Source of the DNA: a virus
Lineage: Duplodnaviria; Caudoviricetes
Strand: one strand, 5' to 3'
DNA: 64,000 nt
Virus record (IMG/VR): IMGVR_UViG_3300032218_002851
Span: 1 to 64,000 of that record
Of the stretch, positions 16,789 through 44,126 are shown piece after piece; position 1 is the stretch's first letter; each line of letters begins with the position of its first letter. The notes under the pieces were generated by a model. The model saw only the letters and a program-made list of their open reading frames with translations, made no database searches and was not told the origin of the DNA. A program made the translations under genes and the position numbers.

Positions 16789-17151
16789 CTATTCGTTACA
16801 GATACCGCAGCAATCAGAGTCACCACAGAGAGGGTCTAGTTCTTGATGAATCTTAGAAAGCTCTTCTAAAGCTTCTTCTTTGTAATCAATCTTCTTGACA
16901 AACTCAAACTTCTTCTCATCAGACCAATCTCTAAGATAATGGTTATCCTCATCAAAGAGCTTCAAATATTCGTCATCATCAATTTCACGAACAGAAGAGA
17001 GTACCTCGTCAACATGATACTGAGAGAATTCATCAAAGTTAGTATCATGAAGACGCATCACCACTTCATCAGTCGCATGAGTCGCTTCCTTAGCTTCTAC
17101 AACATAGCGCATCCGAAAGATGCTAACAGTCTCAACCATGTACTTGTTCAT
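16789..17151 (-). CDS. Conserved T4-like hypothetical protein
   Basis: YMVETVSIFRMRYVVEA...EFSQYHVDE. Confidence 0.65.
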   Translation of the reverse strand: MNKYMVETVSIFRMRYVVEAKEATHATDEVVMRLHDTNFDEFSQYHVDEVLSSVREIDDDEYLKLFDEDNHYLRDWSDEKKFEFVKKIDYKEEALEELSKIHQELDPLCGDSDCCGICNE

Positions 17152-17418
17152 ATATACCTCTTTAAATATAATTGCCACTTATTTATTATACTGAGACATA
17201 ACATAATCATGTCTGTGTCTAATGAAAATTATTCTTCTCCGCGACATCCAATAAAGTCATTTCAAAAAAATTTTCATACTTCAATCCTTATTTCAGGGAT
17301 AAGCTATAGTATCATAATTGCAAGTAATATCCACCACGGACTATAAGGACTTTGTATAATCCAAGCTGTAAACACCAGCAATGCCAGTGCTCTTACTAGG
17401 CGACTGTCGTTCAAGTAA

Positions 17419-17724
17419 TTAATCTCCACTATCAATAGTATGATAATCGCCACAATGCTTACATGTATAACCATTGTAACAATTGCTAATATTTTTTGAT
17501 GTATATTCATGCACACACGGTGTGCCATCTACTCGTAGATTAACCATTCCTGTCGGCTTACCCCATTGTAATTGACCACCGCAATTAGTGCAATCGCAGC
17601 AATCATCTTCTTTTCTATAACCGTACCAGCCGTATTTCACTGCATATACACGAAGACGGTCAGGAGTAGACATACGACCTGTGCCATTACAAATTGAACA
17701 AATGCCTTGCTTTGCGATTTCCAT
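17419..17724 (-). CDS. DnaJ-like zinc-finger protein
   Basis: CSICNGTG, CTNCGGQ and CKHCGD motifs. Confidence 0.65.
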   Translation of the reverse strand: MEIAKQGICSICNGTGRMSTPDRLRVYAVKYGWYGYRKEDDCCDCTNCGGQLQWGKPTGMVNLRVDGTPCVHEYTSKNISNCYNGYTCKHCGDYHTIDSGD

Positions 17725-17778
17725 ATTAGTTTACCTCAGTATTAACCTGATCTATATGTTTGCAGTGTCCGCGAAATT

Positions 17779-18000
17779 TTAATCCTGAACACGAACAACA
17801 GGTTCAGCATAGCCCCAACTATTCTTTACTTCCTTAAACTTGCGATTCTTAGTGCTAAAGGTCACCGACTTCTTAAACACGATAAGATCGTCTGTGTCGT
17901 GCTTCACGTAGCCGATAGCTCGGCTACGGTCGTCATTCAAAAGATAAACATGGTTGGGCGTGTTGCCTTGCCACTGGGTGAGTTCCTGGTAGAACTTCAT
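17779..18000 (-). CDS. Hypothetical protein
   Basis: MKFYQELTQW...PNHVYLL. Confidence 0.6.
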   Translation of the reverse strand: MKFYQELTQWQGNTPNHVYLLNDDRSRAIGYVKHDTDDLIVFKKSVTFSTKNRKFKEVKNSWGYAEPVVRVQD

Positions 18001-18002
18001 GC

Positions 18003-18272
18003 TTAGTTGCTCCAATATGATTCAGAGTCTACCCGGCAGCACCACGGCGTGTTCGAGTCGATTTCAACTTCCTTGCCGCTCATGAGGTTTTTGATCCGAA
18101 TTTTCTTGACTACCTGTTGATCGTACAGATCAACAGGCGCGGACATAGCGGCATAGCGATTGCTGCCAGTGTTACGATTACGACACGTGGCAGAGCGGCG
18201 AGCCGCACTGAGGACATCGAAATACTGCAGGACAATAGTGCTTTGAGTATCATAGACTACGAATTTTTTCAT
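18003..18272 (-). CDS. Early protein of SNTPxCC family
   Basis: NLMSGKEVEIDSNTPWCCRVDSESYWS; paralog of 23085..23345. Confidence 0.7.
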   Translation of the reverse strand: MKKFVVYDTQSTIVLQYFDVLSAARRSATCRNRNTGSNRYAAMSAPVDLYDQQVVKKIRIKNLMSGKEVEIDSNTPWCCRVDSESYWSN

Positions 18273-18305
18273 TTTGCTGCCTCCGACCTTGTTCAATATG
18301 TGTGT

Positions 18306-18334
18306 ATAGTACACATCCAAAATCTGCTTGTCAA
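18306..18334 (-). promoter_or_regulatory. sigma70-type early promoter
   Basis: aacggTTGACA-17-TACTAT. Confidence 0.75.
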
Positions 18335-18364
18335 CCGTTTGGCAAAAAATAATTTTGGACACTC

Positions 18365-18484
18365 GGCAGTATCAATGTGCTGCTCGCCGACATGCTTTTC
18401 AAGCAATTTAAGTTAAGTGATTGATTTTGTTAAATTTTTGTGCAGGACTGAGCCTGTTACAGATATAGATAAGTGATTGATTTT
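18365..18484. repeat. Fixed-spacing intergenic element, copy 2 of 3
   Basis: ATCAATGTGCTGCT (18371), CAGGACTGA (18443, +72), TAAGTGATTGATTT (18470, +99). Confidence 0.85.
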
Positions 18485-18559
18485 GTTTGAATTTCAACCG
18501 GCAAATATCCTATCGTTTAAAGCAAGATTATTTATTTAAATGGGTTTGTGAATAGAATA

Positions 18560-18890
18560 AGTGATGGTTGTATTGAGTAATAAGGAACAACCATCAAGAA
18601 CCCCAATTACAATCAGGCTGCTAAGGCCATCTCGTAATGGTCGTCATTAGATGCGACATTTATATTTTTTGCTTGATTTACGGTCATCGCCTACCGAGTT
18701 GTCCATATCAGTATCTTACCCTGTCGAATCTAGTCACCCCCATCAAAAGCATACTTACGAAACATTTATTGATTGCTGAACCAGTGTGTTTCGACAGCAT
18801 CATATTTACAATATGCTTTTGGTGGAGGTGGGGAGAATCGCACTCCCGTCCAGAATACCTTCCCTTTACTTCATACAACTATAAAACCAT
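18560..18890 (-). ncRNA. ssrA: Circularly permuted (two-piece) tmRNA; tag ASNDDHYEMALAA
   Basis: Minus order: T-arm GGGAG-TGCGATT-CTCCC plus CACCTCCACCA (ends 18820); intervening hairpin; 5' end GGGGGTGACTAGATTCGAC (starts 18741) with G3-U70; tag 18654..18613. Outer limits approximate. Confidence 0.9.
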
Positions 18891-18902
18891 ATTTAGTTAC
18901 TA

Positions 18903-19151
18903 TTACGCATCTATCGGTTTGAAAGTCGTAGAATTAATTCTACAAATAACCTTTTTCATCACAATCTTACCGTGCAAGTGATCGTAAGTATAAAAGTCAT
19001 CAATTATATTTTTAATCGATACAGAAAGATCTGGATTGATTACCGTTACAAAGTGCTGTACTTGCATTTCAGCAACCTTAGGTTCTGCAACCTTCGGAGT
19101 TGCGTAAGTGGGGTGTACCTGCTGAATCGAATATCTCGGATCTATATGCAT
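18903..19151 (-). CDS. Hypothetical protein
   Basis: ORF track. Confidence 0.4.
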   Translation of the reverse strand: MHIDPRYSIQQVHPTYATPKVAEPKVAEMQVQHFVTVINPDLSVSIKNIIDDFYTYDHLHGKIVMKKVICRINSTTFKPIDA

Positions 19152-19160
19152 TTTAATGTC

Positions 19161-19322
19161 CTATCTAATAACCGTCCACCGGACGTTAAATGGCTTATCG
19201 TCTTGTTTATGTTTAAACACTTTCTTGAATTCTTTCTGACCCAACTCAAGCTGCCTTTCTCTATCATGATCGAGGCACGCTTTATACATTTCCTTGACTA
19301 GATTTTTTTGTTTCATAGACAT
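19161..19322 (-). CDS. Small basic hypothetical protein (53 aa)
   Basis: Read manually: MSMKQKNLVKEMYKACLDHD; AAGGA RBS and TAAATA upstream. Confidence 0.5.
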   Translation of the reverse strand: MSMKQKNLVKEMYKACLDHDRERQLELGQKEFKKVFKHKQDDKPFNVRWTVIR

Positions 19323-19350
19323 CCTTATGTTAAGGTTATAAGAATATTTA

Positions 19351-19899
19351 TTATTCCAAGTTAGCGTGCCACTCTCTGAGATTGTCTTCTTCTAATGCAA
19401 GTTTTTCCATAAGATTAAGAATCACAGTTTCAAAGAATATCATAGTAGCAAGTTCAAATCTACTACCAAGAGGAAGATTCTTGTTCGTAGATAAAACTCT
19501 ACTAGATGGACCAATCTGAAAAGTTTTATCAGCCATCTTGCCAAGAGTAGACTCAGGATTTCCAGTGACGAGTAACACTTGAGATTCCTCAGATTTTGCC
19601 TTCTCAGCAAAAGCAATCAACTGCTTGGTTTCACCTGAACCAGAAACAAGAAGAAGTGAATCGCGAATTTCTATAGGTTTGGTAGTAGTTTCTCCAACTA
19701 CTTGAACACTCAAGCCGCAATGCAGCAATCGCATTGCAAACATATTAGCGACCATTTTTGATCTACCTGCGCCTGCCACAAAGATTCGAGGAACCATATA
19801 TGGCGCATAGAGTGCATCGATAAAATCGGTACACATTTCTTTTTCCGTGTAGAGCAGTTCGTCTCTTAGAATATCAAGAACATCAGAGTAATTAGCCAC
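19351..19899 (-). CDS. hxlB: 6-phospho-3-hexuloisomerase (Phi, SIS domain)
   Basis: RIFVAGAGRS, VVGETTT, VSGSGET, PLGSRFE and HANLE motifs; GTG start at 19899 overlaps hps stop. Confidence 0.93.
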   Translation of the reverse strand: MANYSDVLDILRDELLYTEKEMCTDFIDALYAPYMVPRIFVAGAGRSKMVANMFAMRLLHCGLSVQVVGETTTKPIEIRDSLLLVSGSGETKQLIAFAEKAKSEESQVLLVTGNPESTLGKMADKTFQIGPSSRVLSTNKNLPLGSRFELATMIFFETVILNLMEKLALEEDNLREWHANLE

Positions 19900-20530
19900 G
19901 TTCAACAGCTTCCCGAATTTCAGCAGCAGCGCGAACAGGGTCAGCAGCACCATAGATTGCAGCACCTACTACAACGATATCAGCACCAGCATCGATAACT
20001 TGGCGAACGGTATCCTTGTTAATGCCGCCAGCCACTGAGACCATTACTGGTAGGCTTAGACCAACGATTGCCTTGAGGTCCTCGAATGGCGTCTGTCCTC
20101 TCGCCTGAGCATCTAGTCCAGTATGTACGCCGATGATGTGGGCACCTAACTCGGCAACCTGGAAAGCTTTTTCCATCTTATTTGGAACGCTAATCAAGTC
20201 AACCTGTGCCATACCACCTTCTCTAAGCTTTGCTGCTTCAATAACACCAGAGATGGTTCCCACGTCCGCAGCACCAAGTACTGTAACGATATCTGCGCCA
20301 ACTTTAAAGAAAGGCGACGCTTCGTACAATCCGGCGTCCATTGTCTTGAGGTCCGCTAGAACCTTACGTGTAATAGAATACGCTCGTACAGTTTCGACAA
20401 CGCGAATTCCGTTAACCTTAACGCATGGAGTACCGAGTTCGATGATGTCTACATAGGGTGAGATAAGTTGAGCTAGACGAATTGTGTGTTCATAGTCTAG
20501 AGTATCGAGTGCTGCTTGAATTAATGCCAT
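19892..20530 (-). CDS. hxlA: 3-hexulose-6-phosphate synthase (Hps)
   Basis: IQAALD, IIELGTP, ADLKTMDAG.YEA, GVHTGLDAQARGQTPF, VAGGI and VVGAAIYG motifs; methanotroph-like type. Confidence 0.95.
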   Translation of the reverse strand: MALIQAALDTLDYEHTIRLAQLISPYVDIIELGTPCVKVNGIRVVETVRAYSITRKVLADLKTMDAGLYEASPFFKVGADIVTVLGAADVGTISGVIEAAKLREGGMAQVDLISVPNKMEKAFQVAELGAHIIGVHTGLDAQARGQTPFEDLKAIVGLSLPVMVSVAGGINKDTVRQVIDAGADIVVVGAAIYGAADPVRAAAEIREAVERG

Positions 20531-20683
20531 TCTTGTTTCTCCTTTTTATTAAAATTGCAGATAAAGAGATGCCGTGGTTCAAACAACCTATTGGGAATTT
20601 ATAACTATTCCTAAGTTGGCAGACATCTCTCGCTCAACGTAGCTAACTATTTAGTACTTAATTAAACAGTTCATAATTAGTGC

Positions 20684-20792
20684 CTGTCTCGGTGAAGATG
20701 CCTGCTGTCCAACATACAGGACAGGAATTCAGCCCCTCAGGTCAGTATAAATGACCGTACTTGGTACCCATCATCTAACTTCACCGAGACAG
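20684..20792. ncRNA. Candidate structured RNA closed by a 14-bp stem
   Basis: ctgtctcggtgaag / cttcaccgagacag enclosing three small hairpins. Confidence 0.4.
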
Positions 20793-20803
20793 TGCGCTGA
20801 TAT

Positions 20804-21205
20804 TTAGGCTTCTTCAGCCTCTTCGTCAGCATCCTCGACCATCACCTTGGCCACTGCACGAGCCTTCAGGTCTTCCATGTTAGGCTTGCTCTTAGCCTTG
20901 GTCTTGGTCTTGGAAGGTTTCGCAGCCTTAGCCTTGACAAGTGTTTCTCCGTTGTACTTCTCGTCAGCGTTGTCAATCGCCTCACGATACAGCGGGTTCT
21001 GATATAGTTCAGAGGTCTTGAGGAACTCAACCAGCTCAGGCTTTGACATCGGACGCGGAAGTTCCATCAAAGTTGCTTCCGAGTACTTCTTGAGTAGGCG
21101 CTTGATACGGCCCATATCGTTGGCGAATCGCACCTTGAAGGTCTTTGCAGGCACGCTCTGGTCCGTAGAAGAAACACCAGCAACAGTAAAGATTTTGTCA
21201 GTCAT
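20804..21205 (-). CDS. Conserved T4-like hypothetical protein, Lys/Ala-rich tail
   Basis: FTVAGVS...KVRFAND..R.K.L...ELP.PM.K. Confidence 0.65.
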   Translation of the reverse strand: MTDKIFTVAGVSSTDQSVPAKTFKVRFANDMGRIKRLLKKYSEATLMELPRPMSKPELVEFLKTSELYQNPLYREAIDNADEKYNGETLVKAKAAKPSKTKTKAKSKPNMEDLKARAVAKVMVEDADEEAEEA

Positions 21206-21257
21206 AACACACTCCAATATTTTTTTAATTTATTCGCGCCAGCATCAGCGCGAAGAA

Positions 21258-21287
21258 AGTATAGCACAGCGGATGCTCGCTTGTCAA
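21258..21287 (-). promoter_or_regulatory. sigma70-type early promoter
   Basis: TTGACA-18-TATACT. Confidence 0.7.
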
Positions 21288-21295
21288 GCGGTATT

Positions 21296-21496
21296 TTAAT
21301 AAATTGGAAATGCGTTTGCGGCCCGGCAGTTAGTCGAACCACCAAACATACTTTCTACAATACGACAAGCCTGACTAGGATCACCAGCTTCCACCACCAT
21401 CTTGAGATTGTTGATGTCTGTGCGACTAACAAAAGTGCCGCCAGTACGCTGATACGGATCGGGGTGGGCTAACGCATAAGTTACAGTATATTTCAT
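21296..21496 (-). CDS. Small hypothetical protein
   Basis: VVEAGDPSQACRIVESMFGG. Confidence 0.55.
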   Translation of the reverse strand: MKYTVTYALAHPDPYQRTGGTFVSRTDINNLKMVVEAGDPSQACRIVESMFGGSTNCRAANAFPIY

Positions 21497-21532
21497 ATAA
21501 TTTTCCTCTTTTTAGTTTCTAGTGAGATGTTT

Positions 21533-21811
21533 TTAACAGATTTCCAATAGGCTAGCTGGAACATTATATCTACCGTTGGACGGAGTATGAACAACCACAT
21601 TCTTGATCTTGATACGTTCAACAATACCCTGCACAGTAGTTCCGTTGCGAGTGCGGAATTTTACAATATCGCCTGGATGTAACTTACGGCAAGTCTGTCG
21701 AGTCTGTTGTGCACGATTGTATTTGATCGCTTGAATAAAATTATTCATCTCGTCAGTAGTCCAGCTATTGTGGGCAATCGCGCTAACAATATCTTGTGCA
21801 GTAATATTCAT
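21533..21811 (-). CDS. SH3/KOW-like early protein
   Basis: LHPGDIVKF...G.VERIKIKNVVV...YNVPASLL. Confidence 0.6.
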   Translation of the reverse strand: MNITAQDIVSAIAHNSWTTDEMNNFIQAIKYNRAQQTRQTCRKLHPGDIVKFRTRNGTTVQGIVERIKIKNVVVHTPSNGRYNVPASLLEIC

Positions 21812-21840
21812 GCTAATGTCTCCTTTTTTTCAACCTTGAG

Positions 21841-22053
21841 TTAGTCAATCTCACTGAGCGAGATTGACCACAGCTTGTTGGTCAAATCAAACACGCGAAT
21901 GCGATAGTCAGCCAGTTCGGTCTGGAGATCCTTGATATCCTCTCGGCTTTTAGCCTGATTCAACTTGTTCATGGTCGCCAAAATCAAACCGTCCACATAA
22001 TCAATCTGCTGCTGGATCTTGTTTTGAGCAGTCTCCAGATCGATATCACTCAT
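21841..22053 (-). CDS. Small coiled-coil protein
   Basis: ORF track; GGAG RBS. Confidence 0.55.
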   Translation of the reverse strand: MSDIDLETAQNKIQQQIDYVDGLILATMNKLNQAKSREDIKDLQTELADYRIRVFDLTNKLWSISLSEID

Positions 22054-22080
22054 GCTGTTCTCCTAACAAAATATGTGCCT

Positions 22081-22109
22081 ATATTAACAGGTTGAACCAG
22101 CGTTGTCAA
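22081..22109 (-). promoter_or_regulatory. sigma70-type early promoter
   Basis: aacggTTGACA-17-TAATAT. Confidence 0.75.
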
Positions 22110-22470
22110 CCGTTTCATTAAAGAATTTGAGAATTTCTTGGAACTTGGAGAATGCTTCATCGTTCTGAGCACTGGTAACATTACCATAAGGTGAATTATT
22201 AGCAGTAAACCAAATTTCAATCAGTGTCGGTAGAGCGTCATGACTGCCAACGAAGTGTCCATGGTCATCATACTCATGAACTTCGATCAACGGCTGATTT
22301 TGCTTATATCGAATGGTATTAGCCAAACCAGTGCCGCTGACTGGACAGATAGCTGACTTGAATCTTTTCCATTTTTTCTTGGCCTGCTGCCAACTAGCAA
22401 CAGGTTTGCCAACCGAGGGATCTGACAAATATGAATTTAAAATCGGGTCAAATGCGACATAAGTTGCCAT
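22084..22470 (-). CDS. Hypothetical protein
   Basis: Start adjusted to MATYVAFD. Confidence 0.5.
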   Translation of the reverse strand: MATYVAFDPILNSYLSDPSVGKPVASWQQAKKKWKRFKSAICPVSGTGLANTIRYKQNQPLIEVHEYDDHGHFVGSHDALPTLIEIWFTANNSPYGNVTSAQNDEAFSKFQEILKFFNETVDNAGSTC

Positions 22471-22480
22471 GATATTTTCC

Positions 22481-22678
22481 TTAAATCTTGCGGTCAATAA
22501 CGTTGTTGATAACTTGCTCAAGGGCAGCGTGAGCCTCCGTGCCGTGGCAGACATGCAGCATCATATCAATAATGGCAAGGTATCGGCCACTCACCAGCGC
22601 ATACTTGCGAGCGAGATCAGGTTCATCAGCCAGTTGCTGCATTACCACTGAATCCATTTTTTGTGTAATATATTGCAT
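22481..22678 (-). CDS. Small hypothetical protein
   Basis: ORF track. Confidence 0.5.
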   Translation of the reverse strand: MQYITQKMDSVVMQQLADEPDLARKYALVSGRYLAIIDMMLHVCHGTEAHAALEQVINNVIDRKI

Positions 22679-22702
22679 AAAAATTTCCTCAGGTTTACTG
22701 TT

Positions 22703-23083
22703 CTAGTCTTGCCAACGATTTTTCATGCGCTGGATAGCTGAATCAGGCACACCGTGAATGTTCTGCCACTGTCCGCGAGCAGTGATGATTTCCAACTTGG
22801 CACCCAATTCCTCGGCCATTTTTACATAGGATTCCATTTCCCAATGCTGGGTAAAGGTGTTGCTGACAATCACATCCAAGCCAGCTTCCAATGCTGCACG
22901 AGTCTTACGCTGGCACCACTCATGTGCCTGTTTAATCTTCTTAGGATCAAACAGATAACTGCCACCAGGTTTCTCAAAGTACATGTCAGCTTCATAATGA
23001 CGAGTGCTTGGCGTCATCATGCTCTTGGCCATAGTGGTCTTGCCCGAACCAGGCAAACCACGAATAAGGATCAGTTTCAGCAT
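22703..23083 (-). CDS. AAA_33-type P-loop kinase (PNK-like)
   Basis: LIRGLPGSGKTT, EADMYF, AHEWCQ, VSNTF and NIHGVP motifs. Confidence 0.85.
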   Translation of the reverse strand: MLKLILIRGLPGSGKTTMAKSMMTPSTRHYEADMYFEKPGGSYLFDPKKIKQAHEWCQRKTRAALEAGLDVIVSNTFTQHWEMESYVKMAEELGAKLEIITARGQWQNIHGVPDSAIQRMKNRWQD

Positions 23084-23084
23084 T

Positions 23085-23345
23085 TTACATGCTCCAATAA
23101 GTTTCCGAACTCGGGTCGCAGCACAGCGGCGTGTTGCTGTCGATCTCGATTTCCTTGCCAGTCATGAGGTTCTTGACCTTCTTCTTGGTCACTACTTTGC
23201 TGTAATAAACAAAATCGTTTGTATAAGCGTACTCTGTAGAACCAGCATTGCGATTGGCGCAAGTAGTGCTGCGCCGAGCCGAGGTTTCATTGCCAAAACT
23301 CTTGAGCTTCTGGGTGCTGGAAATATGATACACGATGTAGTTCAT
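23085..23345 (-). CDS. Early protein of SNTPxCC family
   Basis: NLMTGKEIEIDSNTPLCCDPSSETYWSM. Confidence 0.75.
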   Translation of the reverse strand: MNYIVYHISSTQKLKSFGNETSARRSTTCANRNAGSTEYAYTNDFVYYSKVVTKKKVKNLMTGKEIEIDSNTPLCCDPSSETYWSM

Positions 23346-23376
23346 GAGTAGCTCCGTATCTTGATTTTACAAGTGT

Positions 23377-23405
23377 ATTATACGGTGTGCTGAACCGTTT
23401 GTCAA
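23377..23405 (-). promoter_or_regulatory. sigma70 consensus early promoter
   Basis: aacggTTGACAaacggtt...-17-TATAAT. Confidence 0.85.
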
Positions 23406-23445
23406 CCGTTTTTGTAAAAATTAAATTTTGTTTAAAATCAATAAT

Positions 23446-23670
23446 TTACAGAAACTTGGCAACTAGCCCCACTGAATAGATACTCAGCAACACGGCATTG
23501 ATCACAATCAGACTCCATTCTCGCCAAATAATAGCCACACCCAGCCAAAGTAAACTGCCCAAATTCAGAAAGATTGGGCCTAGCGGATAGCTGTTCATGC
23601 TGGTAAAGATTGCGCCGATGATGGTTACCGCCACCGCACTCCATTTTAGATAAAAGCTTAATTTTTTCAT
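23446..23670 (-). CDS. Small 3-TM membrane protein
   Basis: LKWSAVAVTIIGA...YPLGP...REWSLIVIN. Confidence 0.65.
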   Translation of the reverse strand: MKKLSFYLKWSAVAVTIIGAIFTSMNSYPLGPIFLNLGSLLWLGVAIIWREWSLIVINAVLLSIYSVGLVAKFL

Positions 23671-26658: not shown

Positions 26659-28536
26659 TTAGTTTCGCTTACGCATTATATCAATTGCTTTGGCTGTTCG
26701 TTTGGTCATTTGTTCACGATCAATAAAATCTGTTATATCCATTGTTCGCAAGTCATAGTCTGTTTGTTTTAGATTGTTGTCGTTAATAAATATTAATGCC
26801 TCAATGCGAGCCTCAGGCCAAATTGTACCGGGAAAATACGCAACAGCTTGCGTTGGGTTTGTCTTTTTAACTAATTTATATCCCTCTGATGCTTTTCCAG
26901 CAGTTTTTTCTCTGACCACTTCACTTGCCCAAAGCTTTTTAAATGTGCTGATGTTTATTTTTTTAGAAAAGTATTGGCTGATCAGCGTGGACATATAGTT
27001 AGAAGGCACATCTGGCTGCAAAATTTTATACAGCTTTTTTGCATATTCTTCTTGGGCAGCATTTGGATCATTGGCAATTGTCATGGCTTTGGCAACTCTT
27101 AGTAACACAAAATTCAGTTTTTCTACATCATCAAAGTAGTTTGGAGCAGCACTAGCAGTGGGCTGGCCGTCTTTGGCTGCATCATACGCATGACCCACGC
27201 TGCGTATTTCTACATAGTCCTTTCGTGGATTAATACTGAAGTATTTGCCAAAATCAAACTGTATCAAAGCTTGTTGTATACTTTGGTAATACCCATCGCG
27301 CAATGCTGAAATAGCCTGGTTTATGTTTTCAGTATTTTGAGATGCGAGTTTCTCAACAAATGATTGTGTAAAGTTATTGCTTAGTCGTCTAAAAAGAGAG
27401 AGTATTTGTTTGTCGCCGAGAAATACAGCGAATTTCACCAAGTCTATATTCATCACAGGCAAGCTGACGTTTATGTGAAATCCTGTGCTGGGATTGCTTT
27501 TGCCGCCGCATTCTTTCACCCAATCAAAAAATTTAGGTAATATAGCAAGACAACTTTGCAGTGACATAGGTGGAGAAACAATCTCACACGGCAGTTCATT
27601 TGGCGCATAATCCTTGATACTGGAATCTGGTTCTATTATCCATGTATCTTTGATTCTTGGTATGCCGTGATAAGCACTACTGAAATCTACTTTTACACCT
27701 AGATATTCGCGCAAAGAATCAGCTATTGTGGCAGCATTGGCGTTGGAAAAACCTAATGCAGAGTCAAGATTGCCACTCAGAGTTAAATATGGCCAAGGTA
27801 GATCTAATATATTGGCTGCACTCTTCATATCCACAATTCTTTTTGTCTCTAAAAAATGCGTTAAAAATTCGGGTGCATCATACCGTTCATAATAGGATTC
27901 TGTAAATTTTTTCTTTACTCTTTGATATAATTCATTTTTCGTAGAAATAGCATCTTCAATTACATTTTCTAGTTCAACCAATGCATCCCGGCGTGCTTGA
28001 AGATATCTGTTAGCCAAGTCGTTTTGTTCAACATTTAGATTGTCGCTGCCATCGTTCTTCCAATTCTGATAAGATTGGTGCGCAAGTTTAATTTGTTTAT
28101 CACTGAGCCCTTGAGATTTTAGTAGGTCGTGGGTTGTCTTTTCTCGTAATCCGTTGTTTCTAAGAACCTCGTCAAACACTTTTCGATATTCATGAAAGGC
28201 AAAATCTGATTCTATTTTATCCACGAACCAAGATTTATATAACAGCTTTAACGCATCGACTTTTTTTTGTACCAGTGAGCGTGGCGTGCGGACAGAACCG
28301 GTGGCTGATGAGAAAAAATCAATGATCTTATTCCAGCTTACGCCAGCCTCTGGATTTAATAATTTATTTTTAGAATAGTCTGGACTTTCTTTTTTTTGTA
28401 ATCCGGTTTGAGTTAATATCAACTCTGCTTCAAATCCAACTTTAATACCTTCTGTTGCCTTGCCCTGAGCAAATTTTTCCAAAGTCTTTGGCGTAATTTT
28501 GATTTCACTCAGAGGTTTGATTTCACCATATCTCAT
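26659..28536 (-). CDS. Amidoligase-like (COOH-NH2 ligase) protein
   Basis: GFEAE, EPDSSI, EIVSPP, STGFHINVS, KYFSIN and VEIRS. Confidence 0.75.
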   Translation of the reverse strand: MRYGEIKPLSEIKITPKTLEKFAQGKATEGIKVGFEAELILTQTGLQKKESPDYSKNKLLNPEAGVSWNKIIDFFSSATGSVRTPRSLVQKKVDALKLLYKSWFVDKIESDFAFHEYRKVFDEVLRNNGLREKTTHDLLKSQGLSDKQIKLAHQSYQNWKNDGSDNLNVEQNDLANRYLQARRDALVELENVIEDAISTKNELYQRVKKKFTESYYERYDAPEFLTHFLETKRIVDMKSAANILDLPWPYLTLSGNLDSALGFSNANAATIADSLREYLGVKVDFSSAYHGIPRIKDTWIIEPDSSIKDYAPNELPCEIVSPPMSLQSCLAILPKFFDWVKECGGKSNPSTGFHINVSLPVMNIDLVKFAVFLGDKQILSLFRRLSNNFTQSFVEKLASQNTENINQAISALRDGYYQSIQQALIQFDFGKYFSINPRKDYVEIRSVGHAYDAAKDGQPTASAAPNYFDDVEKLNFVLLRVAKAMTIANDPNAAQEEYAKKLYKILQPDVPSNYMSTLISQYFSKKINISTFKKLWASEVVREKTAGKASEGYKLVKKTNPTQAVAYFPGTIWPEARIEALIFINDNNLKQTDYDLRTMDITDFIDREQMTKRTAKAIDIMRKRN

Positions 28537-30737
28537 CGGATTTGCCTGATATCCAGATCATCGAATGTCATGTTAGCAAACATATCTGCTGGATAAGGTT
28601 TTTTGATTGCTGCTTGCCAAGCATCGTGTTCATTAGCAGCATCTACTTCTAGATAACGAGTATCGTGATTAGTTCCTGCATAGCGTTTGAATCCCACCAT
28701 ATAGCGTTTTAGTTTGGTGGATGATTTTGGTTCGTCAGTCTTTTTTGAACTGCTGATTTTTTGGGCTAGTAGTTGGCGCTGAGTAGCAAGATCACTGATT
28801 TCACTGCCTTCTGCCTTGTTGATTTCATAACCATATTTTAAAAAGTCTCGTAGTGATCCATTGCCGTATTTGTTGAATGCTGCTCGCAATGCCTCCCACC
28901 CAATCATATCAGGTAAAAACATCACCTGCTCTTGATTTATATCAGATATAACCCAATCATGTTTTTTAAAGTCTGATGTATCTTGTTGTTCTTTGGGCTT
29001 GACAGATGCAAGTACCTTGTCGGCCCATTCTTTTTTAAGAGTGTTTGAATTGATCAACCCTACCATGTATTTGCAGAATAATCCAATGATATCATCCATT
29101 TCGGTTGGATCTACTGAAACTCTGGATCCTTTGGTTCTTACATCAGAAGAAGCAAATTTTGTCTGATGATATTTCGTAAAGCCTTTTGCGGTAGACTCAG
29201 GATCAGTGTCTTTTGGATTCCAATATTTCAGAATGGTCGGTGATAATACTTTATACAACTTCTTGAAGTATTCATTTCGTTCTGCTTCAGGATTTGCAGC
29301 AATATACATTGCCTGAGCATAGCGCATTAAAGTGTTTTTCAATTTGTCAATATCATCAAAATAATCTTTTCCGCCGGCGCTGCGAAATTCTACATAATTT
29401 GCTTTAGGATTAATACTGAAATATTTGCCAAATCCTTGGCCGCCAGCGGAACTCTGATGTATCATAAAATGTGATGCATCGGTTATTCCCTTGCGCAAAT
29501 CTTCAAATGCACGTATCAGCATTGCTGTGTCTCTGGCTGCATTGGCCGGGCTATGATTGGACCTTATATTTTTGATTGTGGTTTTTATTCTTTTTAAAAA
29601 ACTTTCTGCATATGTACTATTTTGTCTTTTAAACTGCTTTAGCACATATTCATCACCCAGAAATAATGCTAATTTAACGGTATCAAGATTTGCAGTAGTC
29701 TGACTAGACAAGCTGACACCCATGTGAAATCCTGTGCTTTTGTTTGAATAAGCATTATTATCTTTTGCCCATGCAAAAAATTCAGGCAACCAATACTCTA
29801 CTACTTCTTTCAACGGCTTGGGTGGACTTATAATTTCAATCGGTAAATCTCTCATATCATCAACGATAATACTGCTATCTGCTTCAAATACCCAGTTATT
29901 CCCGTCTCTTGTGGCAGTATGATAGCCTGAACTGACTTTAACGGTTTCCTCACGGAATGTGCGTCTAAAATCATCTGCCAAGTCTCTAGCAGAAGCTTCA
30001 ACATATTCGCCCTGTTCATCACCGACGGCTATAAAAGGCCATTCAAGATCGTATGCATTAGCTACTTCCATCATTGAATCATATGTCTGTTGTACCCAGT
30101 AATCTTCATCGAGATCAAACTCGTCGGTAAATTCATCTCTTGCTTGACTCCAGTATACTCCTTGGGATCTTATCTCATCTTCTACTTTTTCTTCAAACTC
30201 TGCGTTAGCAGCGTCATATGCTTCATCATAAGTTTCTCGGTCCACGCTGTCACCACGCCGTAAGATGCGTTCAACATCTTCTTCTGAATATTTGTTGCGT
30301 AGTTTATCAGCAACTTCGATTTCTTCGTCCCATGATTCTTGGCGCATTAGTTCAGTAACTAGTTCAAGTTCAGATTCTGCAAACGATTCATCAATTTGTT
30401 TATCAACCCAGACACGATATTCCTCTCGCATTTCATATTCTAATCTTTGTCTGCCAGTCCGCGCTAATCCAAGATTAAAATCATCATTTGAGAAGAAACG
30501 TAGTACGTCCGGGATGCTGACTGGTCTTTCATCCATTTCATAATCTGGCTCCCCTTGTATGTTTGAATCTTGCACACCCATTCCTTCAAATACCAATTCA
30601 GCTTCAAAGCCAGCCATCATGCCTTCAGCAGCAGGACTGTTCATGAACTTGGTAAGCGCGGTAGGATCCATGCGTACTTCATCTAAAATTTGCTCAGATT
30701 CTTTTTTTGGTGCTAACTTGAAGTCTTTAAATTTCAT
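28533..30737 (-). CDS. Amidoligase-like (COOH-NH2 ligase) protein with acidic insert
   Basis: GFEAE, EADSSI, EIISPP, STGFHMGVS, KYFSIN and VEFRSAGG. Confidence 0.75.
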   Translation of the reverse strand: MKFKDFKLAPKKESEQILDEVRMDPTALTKFMNSPAAEGMMAGFEAELVFEGMGVQDSNIQGEPDYEMDERPVSIPDVLRFFSNDDFNLGLARTGRQRLEYEMREEYRVWVDKQIDESFAESELELVTELMRQESWDEEIEVADKLRNKYSEEDVERILRRGDSVDRETYDEAYDAANAEFEEKVEDEIRSQGVYWSQARDEFTDEFDLDEDYWVQQTYDSMMEVANAYDLEWPFIAVGDEQGEYVEASARDLADDFRRTFREETVKVSSGYHTATRDGNNWVFEADSSIIVDDMRDLPIEIISPPKPLKEVVEYWLPEFFAWAKDNNAYSNKSTGFHMGVSLSSQTTANLDTVKLALFLGDEYVLKQFKRQNSTYAESFLKRIKTTIKNIRSNHSPANAARDTAMLIRAFEDLRKGITDASHFMIHQSSAGGQGFGKYFSINPKANYVEFRSAGGKDYFDDIDKLKNTLMRYAQAMYIAANPEAERNEYFKKLYKVLSPTILKYWNPKDTDPESTAKGFTKYHQTKFASSDVRTKGSRVSVDPTEMDDIIGLFCKYMVGLINSNTLKKEWADKVLASVKPKEQQDTSDFKKHDWVISDINQEQVMFLPDMIGWEALRAAFNKYGNGSLRDFLKYGYEINKAEGSEISDLATQRQLLAQKISSSKKTDEPKSSTKLKRYMVGFKRYAGTNHDTRYLEVDAANEHDAWQAAIKKPYPADMFANMTFDDLDIRQIR

Positions 30738-34576: not shown

Positions 34577-35524
34577 TTACTTAACCCATTCTTGTGCTTT
34601 TTGAGCTACTTTAGCGGGTAATGGAACATATCCATCTTTGACTACAATTTCTTGTCCAGTCTTTGATAGCACCATCTTCATAAATTCCTTTTCAAGAGGA
34701 GCAAGAGATTCATTAGGATGCTTGTTCACATAAACATACAAGTATCGAGCTAAAGGATACTTACCGGAAATAGCATTTTCTGGTGTTGGTTCAATAGCCT
34801 CTCCACCGTCTTTACGAGAAAGAGGAAGAGCTTTAACGCTTGCAGTCTTATAACCAATACCAGAGTACCCAATACCGTTCAATGATTTAGTAACACCTTG
34901 TACCACAGAAGCAGATCCGGGCTGCTCATTTACGTTACTCTTATAGTCGCCTTTACAAAGAGCAAACTCTTTAAAGTAACCGTATGTGCCTGATACTGAA
35001 TTACGACCAAACATCTGAATGCGCTGATTGCCAAGATCACCAGTTACTCCTAGACCGCTCCACTGGCTAATGTCGTTATCGTGACCGCAAGCTCTTGTTG
35101 CAGAATAGATTGCATCAACTTGTGGGATAGAGATAGATGTGATCGGATTATCCTTATGAACAAAGACGGCTAGAGCATCAATTGCTACTGGAATAGCCGT
35201 TGGCTTATATCCATACTTGCCTTCAAATGCCTCTACTTCTTCCGACTTCATCATACGACTCATCGGACCTAGTGTTGCCGTGCCTTCAGTTAGAGCAGGA
35301 GGAGCCGTAGCTGAACCTGCTGCTTGAATCTGTACTGTGACATTAGGATAGAGACGTTTAAATTCTTCTGCCCAAAGTGACATAAGATTTGCAAGAGTAT
35401 CAGACCCAACTGATGATAGCGTACCCGATACACCTTCTACTTTTTCGTAGGGAACAATCTCCGCATCGATTGCTGATGCGGAGAAAGAGATTGTGGCAAG
35501 AATACTAAGTAATAGTTTTTTCAT
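34577..35524 (-). CDS. pstS: Phosphate ABC transporter substrate-binding protein
   Basis: Signal peptide; [46 protein letters not shown] and YPLARYLY. Confidence 0.95.
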
Positions 35525-35533
35525 AAATGCTCC

Positions 35534-36940
35534 TTACCAGAATACTGCCATACGAGTAACGATTGCTGATGGTTCAGAACCAGCATACTTACCACCTTCT
35601 ACATCAAGAACCTTGACATAGTTAGTCTGGAAGCGAACGTTCTGTACTGGAAACCAATTAACGCCAACTGATAGATTCTTTTCACGACCACCAGTGATTA
35701 AATCGCTATTCAAGTCTGTATCCGAGAATCGACCAACAAGTTCCCAAGCACCCCATCCACCTTTACCAACAAGAGACTGTGGCTTGACTGAATCAAAGAT
35801 ACCTTCTTGAAACTTATATGGACGAGATTCACCAGTTAGGAACCAGCCAGCAGAGACATAATAACCTTGGAAGTAAGGATTGCCAGCAGCAGTATTCACT
35901 TGCATACCAAGATATTCACTTTGTAGAGTAAATGGTCCCTGTACTACAACAAACTCACCGTTCCAGCGAAGTAGATGATCAGCACCAAATTTACCAGTAT
36001 CAATTAGGCGAGTAGATGTTTCATTGACTTCCATTCTTTCGCGAAGCTGAACGTTGTTACCATCCTTAAATCCACGATAAGAGACACCAGAACCTAGATG
36101 AAGTACATGACCACCATCATGCCAAGGTGCCCAAGTTACACGTCCAGTAGCAGCATAACCATCATTGAAGTCACGAGGATTGGTTTCATCTGCACCCTTA
36201 TCGGAAATGGTTTCTTGCTGGCGAGTACCAAAGATACCCCCGCTATAGGTAAAGTGATCTGTCCAAGTAGTTAGCTTGATACCGGGATTACGTTCACCAA
36301 CATAGTTAGCAAGAGCATTGACTGGCATTGCACGTTCTACAAATAGACCATTGTTTGAGCTATTGATTAGATCAAAGCTAAATGGTTCGTGTGACTGACC
36401 AATCTTGACACTTGTAGGATGTGCTACTGCATCAATACCGGGAAGCTTACCAACATATTCAACATAGGCATCCTTTAGACCTTCAATGCCTTTGTCTGAT
36501 TCACGGAAATCGTATTCAGCTTTGAACTTCCAATTAGTATTCAGTGTACCAGCAACACCAAGTCTTAGACGACGAAACTGACCTGCATCTGCCTGATTGA
36601 ATCCACCGTCTTTATCAAAGAAGGCAGTATCATAATGAATACGACCAATTGTGCGCCAAGCAAAATCTCCGGGCTTGTCTTTTAGTTCAAACTTACCGGG
36701 AGTAAGACCGGGAGTACCTAGCTGAGCAAGAGACTGTTCGACCTTTTTACCAACTTCTGCGCCAGCAGCATTGTTAGTTTCTTCATCAGCTTGAGCGGCA
36801 GACTTAAGTTCCTCATACGATTTGGCGTCAAGGGTTCCTCTAGTCTTTAGAGTATCCAGTAGCTGGATCATCGCATCGTTTGCAGCAAATGCTGGCGCGC
36901 TTAATAGGCACGACAGTAATACTATTGTGGATTTTCTCAT
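35534..36940 (-). CDS. oprP: Phosphate-selective porin OprO/OprP family
   Basis: Signal peptide; GRIHYD, RRLRLG..G, FVERA, WFLTGESR.Y, WELVGRFS.DL and GVNW; C-terminal aromatic W. Confidence 0.9.
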   Translation of the reverse strand: MRKSTIVLLSCLLSAPAFAANDAMIQLLDTLKTRGTLDAKSYEELKSAAQADEETNNAAGAEVGKKVEQSLAQLGTPGLTPGKFELKDKPGDFAWRTIGRIHYDTAFFDKDGGFNQADAGQFRRLRLGVAGTLNTNWKFKAEYDFRESDKGIEGLKDAYVEYVGKLPGIDAVAHPTSVKIGQSHEPFSFDLINSSNNGLFVERAMPVNALANYVGERNPGIKLTTWTDHFTYSGGIFGTRQQETISDKGADETNPRDFNDGYAATGRVTWAPWHDGGHVLHLGSGVSYRGFKDGNNVQLRERMEVNETSTRLIDTGKFGADHLLRWNGEFVVVQGPFTLQSEYLGMQVNTAAGNPYFQGYYVSAGWFLTGESRPYKFQEGIFDSVKPQSLVGKGGWGAWELVGRFSDTDLNSDLITGGREKNLSVGVNWFPVQNVRFQTNYVKVLDVEGGKYAGSEPSAIVTRMAVFW

Positions 36941-40341: not shown

Positions 40342-40449
40342 GTCATCACCGAATTTTCTCCTTATCGGTTTCCGAAGACGTAGACCGCACAGTACACGGC
40401 TATCGCAACCCCAATCATCAGTTCAGACACGTATTCCATGTTGTTCTCC

Positions 40450-40665
40450 TTAGATTTCGACAGAGATGTGACCGGCGAAGCTGAACTTCCGAGTACCGGG
40501 GATGTAGGCTAAGATATCGGTTTCGATATCGCCGTACTCGTCTTCCACACCGATGATAGTAATTACATTCCACTGTTTGAATTCAGTGTCGAAGACGATG
40601 CGGTCGGCTTCAGGAAAGCGGCGCAGCAGGATGGCTTTTTGTTCTTCGCGAGTCAGGTTAGTCAT
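40450..40665 (-). CDS. Small early protein
   Basis: Directly after promoter 40698-40726. Confidence 0.55.
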   Translation of the reverse strand: MTNLTREEQKAILLRRFPEADRIVFDTEFKQWNVITIIGVEDEYGDIETDILAYIPGTRKFSFAGHISVEI

Positions 40666-40697
40666 GATGTTTTCCTATTTTTCTGTTCAATATAAGG

Positions 40698-40783: not shown

Positions 40784-41065
40784 TTACTTGCGCATAGCCT
40801 TTTCAAACATCGAATCTAGACGACTCTTTTGTTCAGCGCAGCAACCCTGAGCAGCATCGCCAGCAGCCTGGGCAGACGTAGCAGACTCCAGTGCCCTTCG
40901 GGCTAGCTTGTCAGTTTCGTTAACCTTGCTTGTTACTACGTCTAACTTGCCACCTAGCAATTCTACCTTGCTGCTAAGGACAGTAACGTCCTTTTGAGTA
41001 GCATAGCTACAACCACTGAGCGTAATAACACCTGTCAACACAGCGATACTAAACATCTTATTCAT
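40784..41065 (-). CDS. Lpp/OprI-like alanine-zipper outer-membrane lipoprotein
   Basis: Lipobox LSGC; Ala-rich heptads; ends CC..Q..RLD.MFEKAMRK. Confidence 0.8.
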   Translation of the reverse strand: MNKMFSIAVLTGVITLSGCSYATQKDVTVLSSKVELLGGKLDVVTSKVNETDKLARRALESATSAQAAGDAAQGCCAEQKSRLDSMFEKAMRK

Positions 41066-44051: not shown

Positions 44052-44126
44052 TCACCGAAATGAGACATAAGCGGTGATTTCGAAACCATTGCGAAGGTCT
44101 TGAAAAGAAGGTGTAGTCCACTGCAT
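44052..44126 (-). CDS. pqqA: PQQ precursor peptide PqqA (24 aa)
   Basis: Read manually: MQWTTPSFQDLRNGFEITAYVSFR; W..P.F.DLR.GFE(xxx)Y signature; RBS TAAGGAG. Confidence 0.9.
   Translation of the reverse strand: MQWTTPSFQDLRNGFEITAYVSFR

What the first reader, a model, noticed from the sequence alone, without database searches (positions are those of the whole stretch)
19351..20530. Phage-encoded RuMP formaldehyde-fixation operon (hps-phi)
Intact, translationally coupled Hps and Phi catalyse ribulose-5-P plus formaldehyde to fructose-6-P, the assimilation entry of type I methanotrophs. In a virocell this could boost C1 assimilation, detoxify formaldehyde or run in reverse to supply pentose for dNTPs. 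It sits among phage genes with no host-like flanks.
Basis: partly seen in the sequence, partly recalled or inferred. Interest (0 to 1): 0.9.

Follow-up and report, generated by a model that had tools for sequence, protein, structure and literature searches.

The report
Phage pqqA-hps-phi formaldehyde-fixation cassette
A fragment of a large phage carries intact copies of the two enzymes that turn toxic formaldehyde into sugar phosphate; in most related phages they sit next to the precursor gene for the cofactor of methanol oxidation, so the phage probably rewires its host's one-carbon metabolism during infection.

Summary
On the minus strand, hps (19892-20530, 212 aa) and phi (19351-19899, 182 aa) are intact. 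The phi GTG start overlaps the hps stop by 8 nt. Both pass NCBIfam equivalog cut-offs, keep the catalytic and HPS-specific residues, and are under purifying selection (dN/dS 0.09-0.24).

The contig is a 90-kb phage fragment. The genes recur in 20 other viral or metagenomic loci (11 Hps types), and two assemblies reproduce their junctions, so this is not a chimera.

New here: in 9 of 11 types a 23-24-codon pqqA lies directly upstream of hps. A permuted tmRNA usually lies downstream. This is a mobile phage cassette; in this window pqqA lies 24 kb away.

Phage Hps and Phi form their own deep clade. It is about equally distant from Methylococcales, Methylophaga and Methylophilaceae, so no Methylococcales origin is supported.

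The host is unresolved. Phage OprP, PstS and PqqA are closest to a high-GC gammaproteobacterial order rich in PQQ dehydrogenases and Fae, of which only 4 of 81 genomes have hps.

Best reading: PQQ-dependent methanol or alcohol oxidation is coupled to formaldehyde fixation into fructose-6-P.

hxlA and hxlB already appear, uncharacterised, in a 2025 viral AMG list. The scan had not noted a phage copy on other DNA.

The parts
19892..20530 (-). [quoted passage not shown]
   Evidence: TIGR03128 226.6 bits, above the 200 cut-off. PDB 3AJX E 2e-44. Residues D9, E31, D60, K62, D65 and H136 are invariant, and the HPS-type residues D111, L139 and A167 are present. dN/dS is 0.10-0.22 against phage relatives.
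19351..19899 (-). phi (hxlB), 6-phospho-3-hexuloisomerase, 182 aa, GTG start overlapping the hps stop (GTGGCTAA)
   Evidence: TIGR03127 165 bits, above the 160 cut-off. PDB 1M3S (YckF) E 7e-33, with the AGAGRS, SGSGET and C-terminal HANLE motifs kept. The start position is conserved in 7 relatives. dN/dS is 0.09-0.24.
20531..20803 (-). 273-nt structured leader between the upstream 137-aa ORF and hps; function unknown
   Evidence: MFE -80.3 kcal/mol, z = -3.3 against 200 shuffles. No Rfam family matches. It is conserved only in L107.
19161..19322 (-). small ORF (53 aa) directly downstream of phi; unknown function
   Evidence: ORF list. L106 has a 51-aa gene at the same place, and the stretch is collinear at 94% nt identity.
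18903..19151 (-). small ORF (82 aa) that travels with the cassette; unknown function
   Evidence: ORF list. blastn matches at 74-80% in L003, L004 and L012, and collinear in L106.
18562..18931 (-). circularly permuted (two-piece) tmRNA gene, tag VASNDDHYEMALAA, downstream member of the cassette
   Evidence: Rfam RF01850 102.1 bits (gathering score 84) and RF04321 122.5 bits (gathering score 47). Also called by ARAGORN. A permuted tmRNA was found downstream of phi in 10 of the 20 related loci; most of the others end too close to phi to tell.
44052..44126 (-). pqqA, 24-codon PQQ precursor peptide (MQWTTPSFQDLRNGFEITAYVSFR), displaced here from its usual place upstream of hps
   Evidence: Read directly: AAGGAGA ribosome-binding site, E-x-x-x-Y core, and a hairpin plus T-run after the stop. 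Homologous peptides lie about 85-200 nt upstream of hps in 15 related loci.
21258..21287 (-). sigma-70-like promoter match (TTGACA-18-TATACT, TG) upstream of the 137-aa ORF that precedes hps; it may drive read-through into hps-phi
   Evidence: Consensus scan only, 11 of 12 positions matched. Function not shown.

Best explanation
hps and phi are functional auxiliary metabolic genes of a large, probably jumbo, phage. They belong to a mobile phage cassette whose usual form is pqqA-hps-phi, followed by small ORFs and a permuted tmRNA.

Proposed mechanism during infection:
- Phage PqqA adds precursor for host PqqB-E to make PQQ. PQQ is the cofactor of periplasmic methanol and alcohol dehydrogenases, and methanol oxidation yields formaldehyde.
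- Phage Hps condenses that formaldehyde with ribulose-5-P.
- Phage Phi isomerises the product to fructose-6-P.
- The virocell thus removes a toxic intermediate and gains sugar phosphate, which the host's pentose-phosphate enzymes can turn into ribose-5-P for nucleotide synthesis.

Shown here: gene integrity, family membership, catalytic residues, phage residence, recurrence, purifying selection, and the pqqA linkage.

Inferred: enzyme activity, the direction of flux, the use of the carbon, and the identity of the host.
For: Family membership and residues:
- Both proteins pass the equivalog cut-offs.
- Both align along their full length to solved HPS and PHI.
- The metal-binding and catalytic residues E31, D60, K62, D65 and H136 are kept. 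The three positions that distinguish HPS from KGPDC are HPS-type (D111, L139, A167), read from the alignment to KGPDC mutants 1XBX and 1XBY.

Selection and composition:
- dN/dS is 0.09-0.24 for both genes.
- GC3 is 0.38 for hps and 0.31 for phi, within the phage ORF mean of 0.36 +/- 0.09.

Phage residence and recurrence:
- The contig is viral.
- The same genes occur in 20 other viral or metagenomic loci with 11 Hps types. One is a 165-kb phage-like contig.
- The junctions are reproduced in independent assemblies.
- Phage Hps forms a clade with 100 SH-aLRT support. Phage Phi is sister to all proteobacterial methylotroph Phi.

The pqqA linkage:
- pqqA lies directly upstream of hps on the same strand in 15 loci, which cover 9 of 11 Hps types.
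- A phage pqqA next to methanol dehydrogenase was described in Lake Baikal methylotroph phages (PMC7678222).

Candidate host lineages all carry pqqA. The OprP-donor order also has PQQ alcohol dehydrogenases in 61 of 61 genomes and pqqC in 42 of 61.
Against: - No expression or enzyme data exist.
- In this window pqqA is 24 kb from hps, and two relative types (L002/L101 and L107) show no pqqA nearby.
- In L101, L002 and L004, and on the P0041 contig, hps lies within about 10 kb of nucleotide-metabolism genes: ThyX, RNR or dCMP deaminase. This fits a pentose-supply role in either direction equally well.
- No methanol dehydrogenase was found in the 90 kb available.
- PQQ also serves dehydrogenases that make no formaldehyde.
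- The host is not identified.
Confidence: 0.6

Rival explanations
1. Reverse RuMP. The pair runs from fructose-6-P to ribulose-5-P plus formaldehyde, as in archaea that lack the oxidative pentose-phosphate pathway. This would supply pentose for phage nucleotide synthesis without carbon loss. Host pathways would oxidise the formaldehyde, or it might feed methylene-tetrahydrofolate for ThyX.
For: In relatives, hps-phi follows a ThyX, RNR large, AdoMet decarboxylase, RNR small and dCMP deaminase block (L101; L002 and L004). A dCMP deaminase lies 2.7 kb downstream on the 165-kb contig. An RNR-small-like ORF ends 194 nt upstream of hps in L005 and L006, with pqqA in between. Both reactions are reversible, and reverse operation is established in Thermococcus and methanogens (general knowledge; Goenrich et al. 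2005 is cited in PMC10904782). The candidate host order has Fae in 58 of 81 genomes, which could remove the formaldehyde.
Against: The most conserved neighbour is pqqA, in 9 of 11 types. That points to production of aldehyde or formaldehyde rather than to its avoidance. Bacteria already have a complete pentose-phosphate pathway. Releasing formaldehyde is costly.
Confidence: 0.2
2. Pure detoxification. The pair only protects the infected cell, and the replicating phage DNA, from formaldehyde. This is like HxlAB in Bacillus subtilis, with no meaningful contribution to carbon or nucleotide supply.
For: HxlAB is a detoxification module in non-methylotrophs (established knowledge; reviewed in PMC8879981 and PMC4776306, listed). 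The phage also carries stress-related genes: Fe/Mn SOD, Hsp20 and glutaredoxin.
Against: Detoxification and assimilation are the same reaction, so this differs only in what selection acts on. Linkage to pqqA suggests that the phage raises the flux that makes the aldehyde, not merely tolerates it.
Confidence: 0.12
3. The proteins belong to the OMPDC and SIS superfamilies but act on other sugar phosphates. For example, the first could be a KGPDC-like decarboxylase and the second another phosphosugar isomerase.
For: The OMPDC suprafamily is functionally promiscuous. KGPDC models also match, but at 90-105 bits.
Against: The HPS and PHI equivalog models score far higher and pass their cut-offs. HPS-type residues stand at the three discriminating positions. 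The two genes are always paired, as in RuMP organisms.
Confidence: 0.05
4. Artefact. The hps-phi stretch is bacterial DNA joined to a phage contig by misassembly, or the contig is not viral.
For: The contig comes from a metagenome and is only 25% complete by CheckV. Read mapping could not be done.
Against: Both junctions are reproduced in assemblies of other samples (L106 and L107). The cassette sits among phage-type genes in many IMG/VR contigs. GC3 matches the phage. No genome of 185,579 species representatives has an Hps more than 63% identical.
Confidence: 0.03

Closest known systems
Hps/Phi (HxlA/HxlB) of RuMP methylotrophs (Methylophilaceae, Methylococcales, Methylophaga) and the HxlAB detoxification pair of Bacillus subtilis
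   Same: The two enzyme families, the gene order hps then phi, the catalytic residues and the protein lengths are the same. Hps is 57-63% and Phi 36-48% identical to the proteobacterial enzymes.
   Different: The genes are carried by phages and form a separate deep clade. They overlap by 8 nt, whereas the cellular phi match starts tens to about 300 nt beyond the end of the hps match. They are flanked by pqqA and a permuted tmRNA rather than by transaldolase or other RuMP-cycle genes.
Viral hxlA and hxlB entries in automated AMG lists (freshwater mesocosm viromes, Nat Commun 2025, PMC12370912; hxlB in cattle-gut vOTUs, bioRxiv 10.1101/2025.05.24.655612)
   Same: The same KEGG functions were called on viral contigs, including freshwater ones.
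   Different: Those papers give names in a list only. They offer no gene context, phylogeny, host or cassette. I could not check whether their sequences belong to this clade.
Lake Baikal phages predicted to infect Methylophilaceae, which carry methanol dehydrogenase and pqqA (Coutinho et al. 2020, PMC7678222)
   Same: They are phage genes acting on the methanol to formaldehyde step, including a phage pqqA.
   Different: No hps or phi was reported there. Those phages are T4-like with 35% GC. Here no methanol dehydrogenase was found in the 90 kb available.
pmoC-carrying large freshwater phages of methanotrophs (Chen et al. 2020, as cited in PMC10904782)
   Same: They are large phages carrying a gene of aerobic C1 metabolism.
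   Different: They act on a different step, methane to methanol. No pmoC was seen in this fragment, and no link to methanotrophs was found here.
Cyanophage pentose-phosphate genes (talC, zwf, gnd, CP12; Thompson et al. 2011, from my own knowledge)
   Same: The logic is the same: the phage redirects host sugar-phosphate metabolism, presumably towards nucleotide precursors.
   Different: The enzymes and the entry point differ. Here formaldehyde enters at ribulose-5-P and leaves as fructose-6-P.

Membership tests
3-hexulose-6-phosphate synthase (TIGR03128, OMPDC suprafamily) | Score at or above the curated equivalog cut-off over the full length | tested here: met
   226.6 bits against a cut-off of 200, covering profile positions 1-205 of 205.
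3-hexulose-6-phosphate synthase (TIGR03128, OMPDC suprafamily) | Mg-binding and catalytic residues of the KGPDC/HPS active site (KGPDC E33, D62, K64, D67, H136) | tested here: met
   E31, D60, K62, D65 and H136 align to those positions in 1XBX and 1XBY. They are invariant in an alignment with methylotroph enzymes. The roles of the residues are taken from the literature, from memory.
3-hexulose-6-phosphate synthase (TIGR03128, OMPDC suprafamily) | HPS-type residues at the positions that separate HPS from KGPDC (KGPDC E112, R139, T169) | tested here: met
   D111, L139 and A167 align with the mutated positions of the HPS-mimicking KGPDC variants 1XBX (E112D/R139V/T169A) and 1XBY. The identity of those mutants is from memory and agrees with the letters seen in the alignment.
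3-hexulose-6-phosphate synthase (TIGR03128, OMPDC suprafamily) | Catalyses ribulose-5-P plus formaldehyde to hexulose-6-P | not testable with these tools
   This needs an enzyme assay.
6-phospho-3-hexuloisomerase (TIGR03127, SIS domain) | Score at or above the curated equivalog cut-off | tested here: met
   165 bits against a cut-off of 160. The margin is small. The query was the 204-aa ORF, and the match covers residues 58-204.
6-phospho-3-hexuloisomerase (TIGR03127, SIS domain) | SIS phosphosugar-binding motifs and the conserved C-terminus of PHI | tested here: met
   AGAGRS, SGSGET, a GS-FE segment and the terminal HANLE align with YckF/HxlB 1M3S (E 7e-33). I did not map them to experimentally defined catalytic residues.
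6-phospho-3-hexuloisomerase (TIGR03127, SIS domain) | Paired with hps in one operon | tested here: met
   hps and phi overlap by 8 nt in this window and in close relatives. phi follows hps in every related locus that extends past the end of hps.
Phage auxiliary metabolic gene | Lies inside a viral genome with viral genes on both sides, and recurs in independent viral genomes | tested here: met
Phage auxiliary metabolic gene | Maintained by selection in the phage lineage | tested here: met
   dN/dS is 0.09-0.24. The phage clade is monophyletic and diversified.
Phage auxiliary metabolic gene | Expressed during infection and alters host metabolism | not testable with these tools
No transcript data were available.
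PqqA (PQQ precursor peptide) | Peptide of 20-30 residues with the conserved Glu-x-x-x-Tyr core | tested here: met
   The window peptide is MQWTTPSFQDLRNGFEITAYVSFR. Phage homologues end in ...RFGFEVTMYINNR, as do cellular PqqA peptides recovered from five bacterial genomes.
Complete RuMP cycle | Hps and Phi plus the regeneration enzymes (transketolase, transaldolase or SBPase, Rpe, Rpi) | tested here: not met
   Only Hps and Phi were found in the 90 kb available. Regeneration would depend on the host. About 75% of the phage genome is missing.

The most novel reading that the evidence does not exclude
The phage infects a member of a high-GC gammaproteobacterial order that oxidises methanol and other alcohols with many PQQ dehydrogenases. 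That order disposes of formaldehyde through Fae/H4MPT, and only 4 of its 81 species genomes have hps. On this reading the pqqA-hps-phi cassette does not boost an existing pathway. It installs a new one, turning a cell that cannot fix formaldehyde through the RuMP route into a RuMP formaldehyde assimilator for the length of the infection.
Probability: 0.3. Interest if true: 0.8.

Novelty: new member of a known kind. Interest (0 to 1): 0.58.

Why it matters
Phage genes for methane oxidation (pmoC) and methanol oxidation (methanol dehydrogenase, pqqA) are known. The step that decides whether C1 carbon is burnt or built into biomass has not been examined in viruses beyond names in lists.

A conserved, selected and mobile pqqA-hps-phi cassette would mean that phages steer formaldehyde towards sugar phosphate in infected cells. 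That would change how viral lysis and virocell metabolism are entered into methanol and methane carbon budgets.

It also offers compact, co-evolved Hps/Phi variants for synthetic methylotrophy.

If the host lacks RuMP, this would be a clear case of a phage adding a carbon-assimilation route rather than topping one up.

Tried and rejected
- **GenBank phages, DNA.** Megablast of 17000-23500 against 50,697 GenBank phage records found no match.
- **GenBank phages, protein.** tblastn of Hps found only hits of 42% identity or less. They lie in unverified 'phage' records and in bacterial whole-genome contigs, so no isolated phage shows this clade.
- **Read mapping.** The read-mapping test for chimerism and any expression evidence are therefore missing.
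- **tmRNA as a host marker.**
  - The phage tmRNA DNA matches nothing in Methylophilaceae, Methylotuvimicrobium or Methylophaga genomes.
  - Those genomes and G006 have one-piece tmRNA.
  - tmRNA therefore gave no host.
- **Hps/Phi donor.**
  - The four hps-bearing genomes of the OprP-donor order were tested as donors.
  - They nest in the Methylophilaceae-type clade and not with the phage, so they were rejected.
- **Naming the OprP-donor order.** Cluster names say only 'Gammaproteobacteria bacterium'. The protein atlas gave only 'Pseudomonadota'.
- **Other host-marker genes.** Hsp20 found nothing, and PlcP did not discriminate between candidate hosts.
- **Leader and conserved element.** Rfam found no family in the hps leader or in the conserved 40.3-40.7 kb element.
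- **Methanol dehydrogenase or further pentose-phosphate genes on the contig.** None was found in the ORFs scanned.
- **Zhong et al. 2024 (PMC10904782).** The main text does not name hxlA or hxlB among its 24 viral genes. In the two habitat tables I could see, they are marked 'No'.
- **Unpublished genome.** G129 was among the Methylococcales sampled. No claim depends on it.
Full report
**What is there**

Two minus-strand ORFs fill the reported interval.

- hps runs from 20530 to 19892 (212 aa). Its ATG is preceded by AAGGAGA.
- phi is best read from the GTG at 19899 to 19351 (182 aa).
- That GTG lies in GTGGCTAA, so phi begins 8 nt before the hps stop codon ends.
- The same start position is a GTG in six relatives and an ATG in L005. 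All share the N-terminus M(A/V)NYS..VLDILRDELLYTEKE.
- An independent gene call in L106 gives the same overlap.
- The longer ORF from 19965 is therefore an artefact of ORF listing.

**Are they really Hps and Phi?**

Hps:

- It scores 226.6 bits on TIGR03128 (cut-off 200).
- It aligns over its whole length with the solved HPS of Mycobacterium gastri, 3AJX (E 2e-44).
- Aligned to KGPDC structures, it keeps E31, D60, K62, D65 and H136. These correspond to KGPDC E33, D62, K64, D67 and H136.
- At the three positions that were mutated to turn KGPDC towards HPS, it has the HPS-type residues D111, L139 and A167. The identity of those mutants is from my memory and agrees with the letters in the alignment.
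- The five catalytic residues are also invariant in an alignment with enzymes of Methylobacillus, Methylotenera and Methylococcaceae.

Phi:

- It scores 165 bits on TIGR03127 (cut-off 160).
- It aligns with B. subtilis YckF/HxlB (1M3S, E 7e-33) and keeps the AGAGRS, SGSGET and terminal HANLE motifs.

**Is it phage DNA?**

- The window is the first 64 kb of an 89,857-bp IMG/VR record that CheckV rates 25% complete. The phage genome may therefore be several hundred kb.
- About 80% of the ORFs called lie on one strand.
- Recognisable genes are phage-typical: tail proteins, nucleases, PAAR, Mtd_N, cell-wall hydrolase, RNR, DnaB-type helicase, primase and many PHROG families of unknown function.
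- There are also 'moron'-type genes: PstS, OprP, a metallophosphoesterase with a GT4 glycosyltransferase, Fe/Mn SOD, Hsp20, IF-1, S21, ClpS and CsgG/CsgF.
- hps and phi have GC3 of 0.38 and 0.31. The phage ORF mean is 0.36 +/- 0.09.
- Read mapping was not possible.
- Two assemblies from other samples reproduce the junctions. L106 is collinear at 94% from 20546 to 18508. L107 is collinear at 88% from 20798 to 19346.
- I regard chimerism as practically excluded.

**How widespread is it, and in what form?**

- Searches of viral and metagenome collections gave 20 further loci of the same Hps clade, falling into 11 Hps types.
- A more distant type (69% identity) lies on a 165-kb phage-like contig, again with an overlapping phi.
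- Outside hps-phi these contigs share few genes with the window, and those at only 22-58% protein identity. The cassette therefore moves among divergent phages.
- It is itself mosaic. Between the window and L106, dS is 0.35 for hps but 0.016 for phi. L134-L136 combine a 75%-identical Hps with a 50%-identical Phi type.
- dN/dS against relatives is 0.10-0.22 for hps and 0.09-0.24 for phi.

**The new piece: pqqA**

I confirmed it by reading the sequence: ribosome-binding site, E-x-x-x-Y core, and a terminator-like hairpin.
- A pattern search of the related loci found homologous peptides directly upstream of hps, on the same strand and about 85-200 nt away. This holds in 15 loci covering 9 of the 11 Hps types.
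- pqqA is elsewhere in L004 and L012, and was not seen in L002/L101 or L107.
- A permuted tmRNA follows phi in 10 of the related loci; most of the others end too close to phi to tell.
- The usual unit is therefore pqqA-hps-phi-(small ORFs)-tmRNA. The window has a derived arrangement in which pqqA has moved 24 kb away.
- PQQ is the cofactor of the periplasmic methanol and alcohol dehydrogenases. A phage pqqA beside methanol dehydrogenase has been described in Lake Baikal phages (PMC7678222).
- This linkage is my main reason for preferring the forward, formaldehyde-consuming direction.

**Origin**

- No genome among 185,579 species representatives has an Hps more than 63% identical.
- In the Hps tree the phage sequences form one clade (39 rows, 100 SH-aLRT, stem 0.4). 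That clade sits in an unresolved polytomy with a Methylococcales plus Methylophaga group and a Methylophilaceae group.
- In the Phi tree the phage clade is sister to all proteobacterial methylotroph Phi.
- A concatenated tree gives the same picture.
- These are quick trees with SH-aLRT support only.
- The capture was therefore old, or the phage copies evolved fast. A Methylococcales donor is not supported.

**Host**

This remains open, and the evidence conflicts.

For an unnamed gammaproteobacterial order (81 species genomes):

- Phage OprP is 62-70% identical to proteins of that order. It is at most 41% identical in 151 Methylococcales and at most 34% in 101 Methylophilaceae.
- PstS reaches 76% there, against 71% in Methylococcales and 26-32% in two Methylophilaceae genomes.
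- Most phage PqqA peptides share the tail DVRFGFEVTMYINNR, or a close variant, with two genomes of that order.
- The order has methanol/ethanol-type PQQ dehydrogenases in 61 of 61 genomes, with 1-19 copies each.
- It has pqqC in 42 of 61 genomes and Fae in 58 of 81.
- It has hps in only 4 of 81 genomes, and those copies are not the phage's relatives.

Against that order as host:

- The stretches I fetched from it are 56-71% GC, while the phage is 40% GC. Large gaps do occur in jumbo phages such as phiKZ (from memory).
- The 68%-identical OprP is itself on a phage-like contig, so these phosphate genes also circulate among phages.

My odds are about 0.4 for that order, 0.35 for a classical RuMP methylotroph, and the rest for something else.

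**Function**

Three readings remain.

- Forward fixation coupled to PQQ-dependent oxidation is my best reading (0.6).
- The reverse reaction for pentose supply is second (0.2). It draws support from the ThyX, RNR and dCMP deaminase genes next to hps in several relatives.
- Detoxification alone is third.

All three end in the same place, a better sugar-phosphate and nucleotide economy in the infected cell, and only experiments can separate them.

**Prior knowledge**

- hxlA and hxlB are named among viral AMGs in a 2025 freshwater mesocosm study (PMC12370912).
- hxlB is named in cattle-gut vOTUs.
- Neither paper analyses them.
- A survey of viral methane-metabolism genes does not name them in its main text. 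It marks them 'No' in the two habitat tables I could see.
- I found no description of the pqqA-hps-phi cassette.
- The scan's own notes hold cellular hps-phi findings and archaeal AOR-HPS fusions, but no phage copy on other DNA.

**Verdict**

The finding is real, functional-looking and phage-borne. It is more interesting for its conserved linkage to pqqA, and for the possible RuMP-less host, than for the two genes alone. It remains a new member of a known kind: a phage auxiliary metabolic gene.

Noticed in passing
window 18562-18931 (-): Circularly permuted tmRNA (RF01850 102 bits, RF04321 122 bits). It travels with hps-phi in many phage loci and is 92-96% identical in nucleotides between phages whose hps-phi is only about 74% identical. 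The candidate host groups tested all have one-piece tmRNA.
   Followed up: partly
window 20531-20803 (-): 273-nt leader before hps that folds into two long hairpins (z = -3.3). It has no Rfam family and is conserved only in L107. It could be an attenuator, a processing site or a small RNA.
   Followed up: partly
window 40353-40680: About 330 nt that is 93-96% identical in otherwise divergent phages (L002, L004, L101). It holds a 71-aa ORF (40450-40665, minus strand) with no Rfam match. The protein is unusually conserved.
   Followed up: partly
window 34577-36940 (-): PstS plus a full OprO/OprP phosphate porin. The porin is 62-70% identical to that of one unnamed high-GC gammaproteobacterial order and at most 41% identical elsewhere. 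A 68%-identical copy lies on another phage-like contig, beside peptide deformylase and Acb5.
   Followed up: yes
window 41317-43070 (-); L106:3363-5109: A metallophosphoesterase paired with a GT4 glycosyltransferase (PlcP/Agt-like). The pair is also present in L106, which has a second metallophosphoesterase after it, about 1.8 kb downstream of hps-phi in that relative.
   Followed up: partly
window 26659-30737 (-): Two large neighbouring paralogues (625 and 734 aa) with weak Amidoligase_2 matches. They lie next to an 842-aa protein of PHROG 36119, whose function is unknown.
   Followed up: no
whole contig (window and L103/L104): Translation and envelope genes are present somewhere on the contig: IF-1, ribosomal protein S21, ClpS, CsgG, an Lpp-like alanine-zipper lipoprotein, Fe/Mn SOD and glutaredoxin. 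These were found in batch scans, so only some are placed. CsgF is at 56344-56847, Hsp20 at 58303-58746 and the Lpp-like ORF at 40784-41065.
   Followed up: partly
L134-L136 (4641-5180): These phage loci pair a 75%-identical Hps with a different Phi type (about 50% identical, the P0177-P0180 clade) that does not overlap hps. This is evidence of gene-by-gene replacement inside the cassette.
   Followed up: partly
G006 order (for example G026:C3:95153-111461 and G006:C2:121058-141341): In the OprP-donor order, fae lies within about 15-25 kb of the best-scoring PQQ methanol/ethanol dehydrogenase in several genomes. This looks like a methylotrophy island in a lineage that mostly lacks hps.
   Followed up: no
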